Shown in pieces: positions 43,955 through 45,712 of a stretch of DNA of 64,000 bases; positions within the stretch are counted from its first letter, which is position 1; the number at the start of each line of letters is the position of its first letter. The notes under the pieces are model-generated. The model saw nothing but the letters and a program-made list of their open reading frames with translations. It did no database searches and was not told the DNA's origin. This DNA comes from Escherichia coli (GTDB lineage: Bacteria; Pseudomonadota; Gammaproteobacteria; Enterobacterales; Enterobacteriaceae). Position numbers and translations under genes: made by a program. The DNA is taken from assembly GCF_051903065.1 (NCBI RefSeq), contig NZ_CP178438.1. The stretch is one strand, 5' to 3'.

Positions 43955-45712
43955 CTATTTCATCAAGTAATCCAATTCATCCTTCATAGGTATAACTTGC
44001 TCATAAAGTCTATGGTAGGATTTTCCAATTGCGCCCCTAAATTGAATAAGTTTAGGGGAAAAGCTACCGATATTAATAATATGTTCTTGCGCTATACCAG
44101 GATATGGATCGATAAAAATAATCTCTGTCATACCTAACTGATAAGCTTTTTTAGCACAAAGTTCACAAGGGCTAGCTGTAGTATATAGTTTCCCTCCATT
44201 AATACCGACCCCACCATATTTGGCCAATTGCAAAAAAGCATTCTCCTCTGCGTGTAATGCACGGGTATGCACTTGATTCCCTTTCTTTTCATCATCAAGG
44301 CTGTTGTGAATATCTTTAAAACAATATGGCAAATTAAGTCCTTTAAAAACAGTAGAACTTGAATCACTCGCCCTTATTTTTATTAAATTTTCTTTAACTT
44401 TACTCCTAAATTTTGTATTACTTCGTTCGTACAGGCTATATGTTCCCTCATCAAAATCATGCAATAACCCATCAAATGACCTCATAGAACAAGGAACTTG
44501 ACCTTTTGCTACATCGTTCCAACCAACTGACTTGATAGAGTTATCATTATCTGTCACAACCGCCCCTACTTGCCTAGATATACATCCAGAATTTAGTTTT
44601 ACAGTATATGCAACTTGCATAACCCTTTCCATGGCGGTAGGAGATATTAATCCAGGGTGTTGCATTAATGATACATACCACGCAATTTGTGCTTTGAGAA
44701 AATTATTATTATCAAATTCTTTTTTAGGGTTAAAAAAATGTATATCTGAAATTTCAATGCATTTTTTTACATTAGGATTAGTAAGATGATTATACTCGCC
44801 ATCTCCTTTACCAGATTCTTCATCATTAATTTTCTTTATCTGTTCCTCTGAGAACTTATGTAATTTCTTTAAATATCTGGTTCGATGTTCATCTGGTGCA
44901 TTTATAGAAACCAGATGGAATGCAGCATATCTATCTTTGAAGAATTTAGCTTCATACGGGTTACGTATCGCATCAATGACTATATACGCTTTATTATTCT
45001 TTACTTTTCTAATTATTTTAATAACACGATTAATTGTTTCAGGTAAATGAAAAACAGCCTTTGGAATAAAGTCTTGATTTTCATAATCTACATCAACCTT
45101 CCCTATTCTTCTAATTGACTTTCCTGCTGACTGATATAGCTCAATATATAAACCTGGCTCTAGTTCATTTAATTCCCTTTTAAAATCCCGTGTAAATTTT
45201 CGAGTAAGAGTTAATATCCTAATAAAGGTATCTTTCCCCCTGCCTTTAAAGTCAATCTCATCATCATGATTAAGAAGATTTTTTATCACCTCAAGATATT
45301 TTATCTTCAACAAACTTTTAGCGAACACACCATTAACAACCAGTTTCTTGGCTACCTTAAAGGAAATCGAATTTTCTTTTTTATCGGGGATTTTACTTGC
45401 AGAAAACTGAATGAATTTAGCTAAGGCCGATGGAGATAAAAGGAGCAAATATATTGAAATGAGATCACTGACCTTTATCGAATAGAAGTTCTTCCAATGA
45501 GTCTCTGCAAAATTTTTTACTATTTCATAACGCCGCAAATCCAATCCTTTATAATACTCAGCCAAGACGTTACTATCTGGAAAAGATATTTCTTTTTGTT
45601 CTAAAATATTTGCTGCAGTAGTACATCCTGAGCCAGTTCTCCCAGTTAAACCAATAAGAATAAATTGACTATTTTCTAAAAAAAGCTCACTAATAAATTT
45701 GTGTTCTCTCAT
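43955..45712 (-). CDS. Kinase-like / cytidine-dCMP-type zinc deaminase fusion protein (candidate nucleotide-depletion defence gene)
   Basis: 585-aa AT-rich ORF; C-terminal HAEENA...SPCELCAKK zinc-deaminase signature; N-terminal glycine-rich P-loop-like GLTGRTGSGCTT; between int and the distal att repeat. Confidence 0.75.
   Translation of the reverse strand: MREHKFISELFLENSQFILIGLTGRTGSGCTTAANILEQKEISFPDSNVLAEYYKGLDLRRYEIVKNFAETHWKNFYSIKVSDLISIYLLLLSPSALAKFIQFSASKIPDKKENSISFKVAKKLVVNGVFAKSLLKIKYLEVIKNLLNHDDEIDFKGRGKDTFIRILTLTRKFTRDFKRELNELEPGLYIELYQSAGKSIRRIGKVDVDYENQDFIPKAVFHLPETINRVIKIIRKVKNNKAYIVIDAIRNPYEAKFFKDRYAAFHLVSINAPDEHRTRYLKKLHKFSEEQIKKINDEESGKGDGEYNHLTNPNVKKCIEISDIHFFNPKKEFDNNNFLKAQIAWYVSLMQHPGLISPTAMERVMQVAYTVKLNSGCISRQVGAVVTDNDNSIKSVGWNDVAKGQVPCSMRSFDGLLHDFDEGTYSLYERSNTKFRSKVKENLIKIRASDSSSTVFKGLNLPYCFKDIHNSLDDEKKGNQVHTRALHAEENAFLQLAKYGGVGINGGKLYTTASPCELCAKKAYQLGMTEIIFIDPYPGIAQEHIINIGSFSPKLIQFRGAIGKSYHRLYEQVIPMKDELDYLMK

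What the first reader, a model, noticed from the sequence alone, without database searches (positions are those of the whole stretch)
43955..45712. Kinase-like / cytidine-deaminase fusion gene between integrase and the distal att repeat
A 585-aa AT-rich ORF carries an unmistakable zinc-deaminase signature (HAEENA, then SPCELCAKK about 30 residues on) in its C-terminal third, and a glycine-rich P-loop-like segment (GLTGRTGSGCTT) at the N-terminus. P2 has nothing between int and att, so this is a moron insertion. The architecture matches the reported kinase-deaminase dCTP-deaminase defence family that depletes dCTP on infection; the Walker A lysine appears replaced, so the N-terminal domain may sense rather than phosphorylate.
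Basis: partly seen in the sequence, partly recalled or inferred. Interest (0 to 1): 0.8.

Follow-up and report, generated by a model that had tools for sequence, protein, structure and literature searches.

The report
Prophage-borne anti-phage dCTP deaminase gene
This is a real but already catalogued single-gene phage-defence enzyme (an anti-phage dCTP deaminase), carried as an add-on gene at the edge of a 186/Fels-2-like prophage; a close relative from the same prophage position has already been tested in the lab.

Summary
The 585-aa ORF at 43955..45712 (-) exists as described, with GLTGRTGSGCTT at residues 21-32, HAEENA at 487-492 and SPCELCAKK at 514-522. Its GC content is 33%, against 52% for the rest of the prophage.

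It passes the curated NCBIfam equivalog "anti-phage dCTP deaminase" (420.5 bits, cut-off 400) and PADLOC dCTPase (E 2e-146). The exact protein is already in RefSeq under that name (WP_439691012.1). It is 75% identical over its full length to the E. coli AW1.7 enzyme of Tal et al. It keeps all four residues whose mutation abolished defence there, including the G29-C30 pair in the P-loop.

The Cys in place of the Walker-A Lys is family-wide: 130 of 137 representatives have Cys and none has Lys. An AlphaFold model (pLDDT 92) gives an NMP-kinase-like N-domain and a dCMP-deaminase C-domain.

The gene is a ~1.9-kb insertion between int and the attP arm of a prophage integrated in ssrA. Tal's tested U09 gene came from the same slot, and this int-att slot is already reported as a minor P2 defence hotspot.

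I found no evidence for an AvcI-type RNA antitoxin.

Verdict: observation confirmed, interpretation supported, already known, low interest.

The parts
43955..45712 (-). Anti-phage dCTP deaminase CDS, 585 aa plus stop codon
   Evidence: ORF. NCBIfam NF041025 420.5 bits against a cut-off of 400. PADLOC dCTPase 2e-146. Exact sequence is WP_439691012.1, named 'anti-phage dCTP deaminase'.
44663..45712 (-). N-terminal P-loop NMP-kinase-like domain (about residues 1-350), with a variable helical insert at residues ~101-160
45617..45652 (-). Degenerate Walker A motif GLTGRTGSGCTT (residues 21-32); C30 at nt 45623-45625 replaces the canonical Lys
   Evidence: Cys in 130 of 137 family representatives, never Lys. 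G29A/C30A abolish defence in AW1.7.
44972..44974 (-). D247, a Walker-B-like aspartate at the end of strand IVID
   Evidence: Conserved in 145 of 149 representatives. Strand at residues 242-247 in the model.
43958..44647 (-). C-terminal zinc dCMP-deaminase-fold domain (about residues 356-585)
44237..44254 (-). HAEENA: catalytic His/Glu (H487, E489)
   Evidence: Invariant in the family alignment.
44147..44173 (-). SPCELCAKK: the PCxxC zinc ligands (C516, C519)
   Evidence: Invariant or nearly invariant.
44489..44584 (-). Segment bounded by C377 (nt 44582-44584) and C408 (nt 44489-44491); these match AW1.7 C370 and C401, whose mutation abolished defence
   Evidence: Both Cys are invariant in 150 representatives. 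They align with T4 dCMP deaminase C19 and C49.
45713..45818 (-). Cargo-specific upstream region (~105 nt), with a Shine-Dalgarno AGGTG and a weak promoter-like TTGCAA-17-AATACT
   Evidence: Alignments with the Citrobacter allele and with SEN8 define the limits. The promoter reading is my own inspection (8 of 12 matches, below the scanner threshold).
45819..45934 (.). Phage arm of attP (prophage side of attR), conserved with cargo-free phage SEN8 and with prophages carrying other deaminase alleles
45935..45980 (+). attR core: a 46-bp copy of the ssrA 3' end
   Evidence: The identical core is found in SEN8 attP.
12454..12499 (+). attL core, forming the 3' end of the intact tmRNA gene (12136-12498)
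42928..43941 (+). Prophage tyrosine integrase, convergent with the deaminase gene; the two stop codons are 13 nt apart
42294..42926 (+). 186-type CI repressor
   Evidence: annotation of the 99.8%-identical locus in strain 600468.

Best explanation
The ORF encodes a single-gene anti-phage dCTP deaminase of the Tal et al. 2022 / AvcD family. It is carried as a ~1.88-kb low-GC add-on gene (a moron) inserted between the integrase gene and the attP arm of a 186/Fels-2-like prophage integrated in ssrA.

Inferred mechanism, by homology to the AW1.7 enzyme (75% identity): the protein is made in the lysogen from its own promoter and stays inactive. Infection by a lytic phage that tampers with host transcription activates it. 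The C-terminal zinc deaminase domain (H487/E489, C516/C519) then converts dCTP, and probably dCMP, to deoxyuridine nucleotides. This empties the dCTP pool and stalls phage DNA replication.

The N-terminal domain has an NMP-kinase fold but lacks the Walker-A lysine. It is required for activity, most probably as a nucleotide-binding or regulatory module rather than a phosphotransferase.

Shown here: family membership, fold, conservation of the experimentally essential residues, and the prophage position. Inferred: enzymatic activity, the trigger, and the role of the N-domain.
For: - Curated models: NF041025 equivalog 420.5 bits against a cut-off of 400, covering model positions 1-437 of 437; PADLOC dCTPase 2e-146.
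- The exact protein is named 'anti-phage dCTP deaminase' in RefSeq. Six complete E. coli genomes carry it at >=99.5% nucleotide identity under the same name.
- It is 75% identical end to end to AW1.7. For AW1.7, Tal et al. showed phage defence, dCTP depletion after T7 infection, and loss of both in G29A/C30A and C370A/C401A mutants. The corresponding G29, C30, C377 and C408 are present here.
- The HAE and PCxxC motifs are invariant across 150 representatives of 50%-identity clusters.
- Tal's U09 construct starts with the ypjA-side flank plus attR. The tested U09 gene therefore came from the same slot. The U09-type protein is 70% identical to this one.
- The insertion is delimited by comparison with the cargo-free phage SEN8.
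- The int-att slot is reported as a minor defence hotspot of P2-like prophages (10.64898/2026.02.27.708500).
Against: - No experiment exists on this allele. It is 25-30% diverged from the two tested E. coli proteins.
- The margin over the NCBIfam cut-off is only about 20 bits.
- No sigma-70 promoter reached the scanner threshold upstream of the gene, so expression in the lysogen is assumed.
- How the family senses infection is unresolved in the literature.
- It is unclear how the prophage avoids harming its own replication on induction.
Confidence: 0.92

Rival explanations
1. The locus is a two-part AvcID-type type III toxin-antitoxin system. An unannotated small RNA encoded just 5' of the gene binds and inhibits the deaminase, and its decay after phage-induced transcription shut-off releases the enzyme.
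For: - The AvcD family has the same two-domain architecture. AvcI/DifV is a 152-174-nt RNA immediately 5' of avcD, on the same strand and co-transcribed.
- AvcI RNAs of different species share no sequence similarity, so a homology search could miss one (Hsueh preprint; PMC10511110).
- There are 222 nt between the start codon and attR.
Against: - Only ~105 nt upstream (45713-45818) belong to the cargo. The rest is the attP arm, shared with cargo-free SEN8. That is shorter than the minimal functional AvcI.
- The 222-nt upstream RNA folds no better than shuffles (z = -1.0, 31 of 200 shuffles as good).
- Rfam finds nothing there except the tmRNA fragment.
- The 75%-identical AW1.7 gene defended, and was infection-dependent, when cloned with only ~85 nt of upstream sequence.
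Confidence: 0.1
2. It is a nucleotide-metabolism gene that serves the phage's own replication, or a housekeeping dCMP deaminase feeding dTTP synthesis, with no defence role.
For: - The C-domain is most similar to dCMP deaminases of phages T4 and S-TIM5 and of bacteria.
- PHROG dCMP-deaminase families match the C-terminal part.
Against: - ComEB/dCMP-deaminase equivalog TIGR02571 scores 41.6 bits against a cut-off of 219.
- Housekeeping and T4 enzymes are 140-190-aa single-domain proteins. This one is 585 aa, with an obligatory kinase-like domain.
- The gene is absent from related phages such as SEN8. No record in the phage collection matches it at the nucleotide level, and none has a protein match covering 80% of the query or above 60% identity.
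- It is convergent to int, outside the early and late operons.
- The tested homologues deplete dCTP rather than support replication.
Confidence: 0.03
3. It is an APOBEC-like mutator that edits phage DNA or RNA cytosines rather than free nucleotides.
For: - Weak Pfam matches to APOBEC_N, NAD1 and MafB19-type deaminases (E 0.0035 to 2.6).
Against: - Those matches are far weaker than dCMP_cyt_deam_1.
- The best structural neighbours are mononucleotide deaminases.
- The Tal et al. preprint's Figure S2 legend reports no evidence of genome or transcriptome editing by the AW1.7 homologue.
Confidence: 0.02

Closest known systems
E. coli AW1.7 anti-phage dCTP deaminase (WP_045268677.1; Tal et al. 2022, preprint 10.1101/2021.04.26.441389)
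   Same: 75% identity over the full length. Same two-domain architecture and the same G29-C30 P-loop. All four residues mutated in that study are conserved, as are the HAE and PCxxC motifs.
   Different: AW1.7 is 576 aa, against 585 aa here. The AW1.7 gene sits in an integrase island next to tRNA-Phe, not in a prophage. The two proteins diverge mainly at residues 101-160 and 421-460.
E. coli U09 dCTP deaminase (tested by Tal et al.); the U09-type allele is WP_097293750.1 in strain CAVP773
   Same: Same genomic slot: ypjA, attR (ssrA core), deaminase, int, CI of a 186-like prophage. Annotated as anti-phage dCTP deaminase.
   Different: Only 70% protein identity, although Int is 95% and CI 99% identical. 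There are 380 nt between the gene and int, against 13 nt here. The U09 gene gave narrower protection than AW1.7.
AvcD/AvcI (DcdV/DifV) of Vibrio cholerae VSP-1 and its homologues (Hsueh et al. 2022)
   Same: P-loop kinase-like domain plus dCMP deaminase domain, both needed. Walker-A Lys replaced by a non-Lys residue. Deaminates dCTP and dCMP and is activated after transcription shut-off.
   Different: AvcD is 532 aa, with Ser rather than Cys at the Walker-A position, judging from the published S52K mutant. It depends on a 152-174-nt RNA antitoxin encoded 5' of the gene. I found no evidence, and little room, for such an RNA here. I did not compare the sequences directly.
dCMP deaminases (T4 Cd 1vq2, S. 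mutans 2hvv, cyanophage S-TIM5 4p9c, PBCV-1 bifunctional dCMP/dCTP deaminase 7fh4)
   Different: Those are single-domain biosynthetic enzymes of 140-190 aa. They have no kinase-like domain and no defence role.

Membership tests
Anti-phage dCTP deaminase (NCBIfam NF041025; PADLOC dCTPase; Tal et al. 2022) | Scores above the curated whole-protein cut-off of the equivalog model | tested here: met
   420.5 bits against a cut-off of 400, covering model positions 1-437 of 437. PADLOC PDLC02373 E 2e-146.
Anti-phage dCTP deaminase (NCBIfam NF041025; PADLOC dCTPase; Tal et al. 2022) | N-terminal kinase-like domain plus C-terminal zinc cytidine/dCMP deaminase domain in one protein of more than 350 aa (family definition in the Tal et al. 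methods) | tested here: met
Anti-phage dCTP deaminase (NCBIfam NF041025; PADLOC dCTPase; Tal et al. 2022) | Residues shown essential in AW1.7 (G29, C30 in the nucleotide-binding motif; C370, C401) | tested here: met
   G29, C30, C377 and C408 align with them. They are invariant or nearly invariant across the family.
Anti-phage dCTP deaminase (NCBIfam NF041025; PADLOC dCTPase; Tal et al. 2022) | Catalytic H-A-E and P-C-x-x-C zinc motifs | tested here: met
   H487, E489, C516 and C519 are present and conserved in at least 147 of 150 representatives.
Anti-phage dCTP deaminase (NCBIfam NF041025; PADLOC dCTPase; Tal et al. 2022) | Infection-triggered conversion of dCTP to deoxyuridine nucleotides, and protection from phage | not testable with these tools
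   Needs plaque assays and LC-MS. Known only for the homologues AW1.7 and U09.
AvcID type III toxin-antitoxin system | Cognate 152-174-nt RNA antitoxin encoded immediately 5' of the deaminase gene and co-transcribed with it | tested here: inconclusive
   Only ~105 nt of cargo-specific upstream sequence. Folding z-score -1.0. No Rfam match. AvcI RNAs lack sequence conservation, so absence cannot be proven in silico.
Catalytic P-loop nucleotide kinases | Walker A motif GxxxxGK[ST] with the phosphate-binding lysine | tested here: not met
   The motif is GRTGSGCT: Cys at the Lys position. In 137 aligned representatives there are 130 Cys and no Lys. The fold itself is kinase-like.
Housekeeping dCMP deaminase (ComEB, TIGR02571) | Scores above the equivalog cut-off; single-domain protein of about 150 aa | tested here: not met
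   41.6 bits against a cut-off of 219.45, matching only residues 483-537. The protein is 585 aa.
Prophage moron in the P2-like int-att defence hotspot | Foreign gene located between the integrase gene and the att site, and absent from related phages | tested here: met
   An insertion at 43942-45818 relative to SEN8. GC 33% against 52%. Other cargo or other alleles occupy the slot in related prophages. The hotspot is described in 10.64898/2026.02.27.708500.

The most novel reading that the evidence does not exclude
The most novel reading the evidence does not exclude has two parts.

First, the int-att slot of ssrA-integrating 186/Fels-2-like prophages may be a site of rapid allele replacement. 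Four deaminase alleles are only 69-83% identical, while the flanking Int and CI are 90-99% identical. The divergence concentrates in two surface inserts, residues ~101-160 and ~421-460. These inserts could be the part that senses infection or is targeted by phage inhibitors, so alleles would differ in which phages they recognise.

Second, the family-invariant Cys that replaces the Walker-A Lys may make the kinase-like domain a non-phosphorylating nucleotide sensor or switch.
Probability: 0.25. Interest if true: 0.45.

Novelty: already known. Interest (0 to 1): 0.15.

Why it matters
It adds little for discovery. The gene family, its mechanism (dCTP depletion) and this prophage position are all published, and annotation pipelines already name the gene.

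It is useful as annotation: this lysogen carries a nucleotide-depletion defence that may affect phage typing or phage therapy. It is also one more data point showing that P2/186-like prophages use the int-att slot for defence cargo and exchange diverged deaminase alleles there.

The open questions belong to the family rather than to this locus: how infection is sensed, what the Lys-less P-loop does, and the lack of any solved full-length structure.

Tried and rejected
- **Rfam scan, 43500-46300, permissive E-value.** Only the tmRNA 3' fragment at attR turned up, plus chance-level hits. No AvcI-like family.
- **Folding of the 222-nt upstream RNA.** Not more stable than shuffles.
- **Promoter/terminator scan.** No minus-strand promoter above threshold upstream of the gene, and no convincing terminator between the convergent gene ends.
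- **Megablast of the gene against 50,697 phage records.** No match. tblastn found only distant partial hits (<=29% identity), mostly T4-type dCMP deaminases, plus a 27%-identical partial homologue in Burkholderia P2-like phage phiE094.
- **PDB sequence search.** Only single-domain dCMP deaminases, so no solved structure of the two-domain family was found.
- **Published Nature Microbiology versions of Tal et al. and Hsueh et al..** Not held, so I used the preprints. Residue numbers for AvcD mutants come from the preprint.
- **ETEC H10407 AvcD locus.** I looked for it through the ETEC-type allele, but H10407 did not appear, so I made no direct comparison with a tested AvcID locus.
- **Rejected readings.** I considered a housekeeping dCMP deaminase and an APOBEC-like editor, and rejected both (see rival explanations).

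Full report
**1.

The window has a single 585-codon ORF at 43955..45712 on the minus strand. It contains GLTGRTGSGCTT at residues 21-32, HAEENA at 487-492 and SPCELCAKK at 514-522. The gene has 33% G+C, against 52% for the rest of the prophage.

A 46-bp perfect direct repeat lies at 12454-12499 and 45935-45980. The first copy is the 3' end of an intact tmRNA gene. Rfam recognises the second copy as a tmRNA 3' fragment. These are attL and attR of a ~33.5-kb prophage integrated in ssrA.

**2. What the gene is**

- Family models: PADLOC dCTPase matches at E 2e-146. The NCBIfam equivalog NF041025 'anti-phage dCTP deaminase' matches end to end at 420.5 bits, above its cut-off of 400. Pfam finds dCMP_cyt_deam_1 at residues 361-533 and a weak dephospho-CoA-kinase match at 19-70.
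- Existing annotation: the exact protein is already in RefSeq as WP_439691012.1, 'anti-phage dCTP deaminase'. Six of 5,426 complete E. coli genomes carry the gene at >=99.5% nucleotide identity under the same annotation. 43 genomes carry some member of the family.
- No solved structure of the two-domain protein turned up, by sequence or by fold.

**3. Relation to the tested proteins**

Tal et al. (preprint 10.1101/2021.04.26.441389) cloned two E. coli genes of this family, from strains U09 and AW1.7. Both defended against phages. For AW1.7 they showed that dCTP is depleted after T7 infection. The mutants G29A/C30A (nucleotide-binding motif) and C370A/C401A lost both defence and depletion.

The AW1.7 genome is in the collection. 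Its protein is 75% identical to the window protein over the full length, and G29, C30, C370 and C401 correspond to G29, C30, C377 and C408 here.

The first ~210 nt of the synthesized U09 fragment (Table S5) match the reverse complement of the window's ypjA-side flank and attR core almost exactly. The next ~110 nt match the attP arm less closely, and the two sequences then diverge. The U09-type allele sits in the order ypjA, attR, deaminase, int, CI in strain CAVP773. It is 70% identical to the window protein. A gene from this very slot has therefore already been tested.

**4. The Walker A observation**

The motif reads G-RTGS-G-C-T, so the canonical lysine is a cysteine. Across 150 representatives of 50%-identity clusters, this position is Cys in 130 of 137 aligned sequences and never Lys. 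D247 (Walker-B-like), C377, C408, H487, E489, C516 and C519 are invariant or nearly so.

In V. cholerae AvcD the corresponding mutant is S52K, so that branch has Ser at this position. The replacement is thus a family signature, and mutagenesis shows the motif is needed for activity.

The domain most likely binds a nucleotide without transferring phosphate. This is an inference from the missing lysine, and nothing here tests it.

**5. Genomic anatomy**

The prophage is 186/Fels-2-like. It has CI, an Apl-like Rha-family gene, CII, Fil, a gpA-type replication endonuclease and a DinI-like gene. Its closest sequenced relatives are Peduoviridae, such as Felsduovirus SEN8.

In SEN8 the int stop codon is followed within ~40 nt by the conserved attP arm and the same 46-bp core. 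In the window, ~1.88 kb (43942 to ~45818) is inserted at that point. The insertion consists of the gene plus ~105 nt of upstream sequence. That upstream part has a Shine-Dalgarno sequence and a weak promoter-like element conserved in the Citrobacter allele. The deaminase and int genes are convergent, with stop codons 13 nt apart.

Related prophages carry other alleles in the same slot:
- U09-type, 577 aa
- ETEC E1433-type, 580 aa
- a Citrobacter braakii allele, 585 aa, 83% identical

The deaminases are 69-83% identical to each other, while Int is 91-95% and CI 90-99% identical. Divergence concentrates at residues ~101-160 and ~421-460.

Klebsiella prophages with a 92%-identical int/CI region carry an unrelated 506-aa ORF in the slot.

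**6. Is there an RNA antitoxin?**

AvcD-type deaminases are held in check by AvcI, a 152-174-nt RNA encoded immediately 5' of the gene and co-transcribed with it. AvcI has no sequence conservation between species. I looked for an equivalent.

- Only ~105 nt upstream belong to the cargo. The remaining ~115 nt up to attR is the attP arm, shared with cargo-free SEN8.
- The 222-nt upstream RNA folds no better than shuffled controls (z = -1.0).
- Rfam finds nothing.
- The AW1.7 gene worked, in an infection-dependent way, with ~85 nt of upstream sequence.

I therefore treat the locus as a single-gene system. I keep the RNA-antitoxin idea as a low-probability rival that only an RNA experiment can settle.

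**7. Mechanism**

Most likely (confidence ~0.9) the protein is made in the lysogen and activated when an infecting phage interferes with host transcription. T7 escape mutants map to gene 5.7 (gp5.7 inhibits host RNA polymerase), and AvcD is released by transcription shut-off. The active enzyme then deaminates dCTP and dCMP, starving phage DNA synthesis of dCTP.

Family membership, fold, conserved essential residues and prophage position are shown here. Activity, trigger and the N-domain's role are inferred from homologues.

**8. Novelty and verdict**

- the family (2022)
- the annotation of this exact protein
- the Lys-less P-loop
- the test of a gene from the same prophage slot
- the slot as a hotspot

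Interest is low (0.15). The only mildly new points are the allele turnover in this slot and the two hypervariable inserts, which could guide work on sensing specificity.

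Noticed in passing
window 34510-36230 (-): ORFs 34510..35202 (230 aa) and 35199..36230 (343 aa): A low-GC (34%) two-gene operon sits in the canonical P2 'old/tin' defence hotspot, between the cos/portal end and replication gene A. Neither protein matches PADLOC, NCBIfam or Pfam; the larger one matches only PHROG 3482 (unknown function). It is present in 2 of 5,426 complete E. coli genomes, annotated as hypothetical proteins. The dCTP-deaminase-carrying prophage of strain 600468 has an 'AAA family ATPase' at the matching position, so the cargo there may differ. 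This is a candidate uncharacterised defence pair, and probably more novel than the assigned finding.
   Followed up: partly
L012 (Klebsiella phage Kp4845-2, OK490395.1) 133-1653 (-): Klebsiella prophages with a 92%-identical int/CI region carry an unrelated 506-aa ORF in the same int-att slot, on the same strand as int. It has no PADLOC match. This shows the slot takes varied cargo.
   Followed up: partly
window residues ~101-160 (nt ~45233-45412) and ~421-460 (nt ~44333-44452) of the deaminase: Two segments are hypervariable among otherwise close alleles (23-47% identity per 20-residue block in 101-160 and 441-460, 59% in 421-440, against 80-100% in most other blocks). Both lie in helical inserts of the model. 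They may be specificity or inhibitor-contact surfaces.
   Followed up: partly
window 45896-45925 (+): A strong sigma-70-like site (TTGAAA-18-TATAAT, 11 of 12 matches) lies inside the attP arm and reads outward across attR toward the ypjA-side flank. Its function is unknown.
   Followed up: no
window 12622-13104 (+), just inside attL: A 160-aa ORF next to attL has weak partial matches to PADLOC candidate PDC-S48 (E 1.8e-7), to the C-terminal part of a DEDDh family exonuclease model and to the C-terminal part of the NAD-dependent ligase LigA model. It may be a second piece of edge cargo.
   Followed up: no
window 46140-49280 (-): A 1046-aa autotransporter-like ORF lies immediately outside attR. 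It corresponds to ypjA, which is annotated in strain CAVP773 as an AIDA-repeat protein and a pseudogene missing its C-terminus. Its intactness in the window was not checked.
   Followed up: no
window 57838-58104: Three tandem ~90-nt units of REP/BIME-like palindromic repeats, an ordinary feature of E. coli intergenic regions.
   Followed up: no
Burkholderia phage phiE094 (NC_055911.1) 32378-33223: The only sequenced P2-like phage in the collection with a relative of this protein. The match covers residues 245-537 at 27% identity and is annotated as a cytidine deaminase.
   Followed up: no
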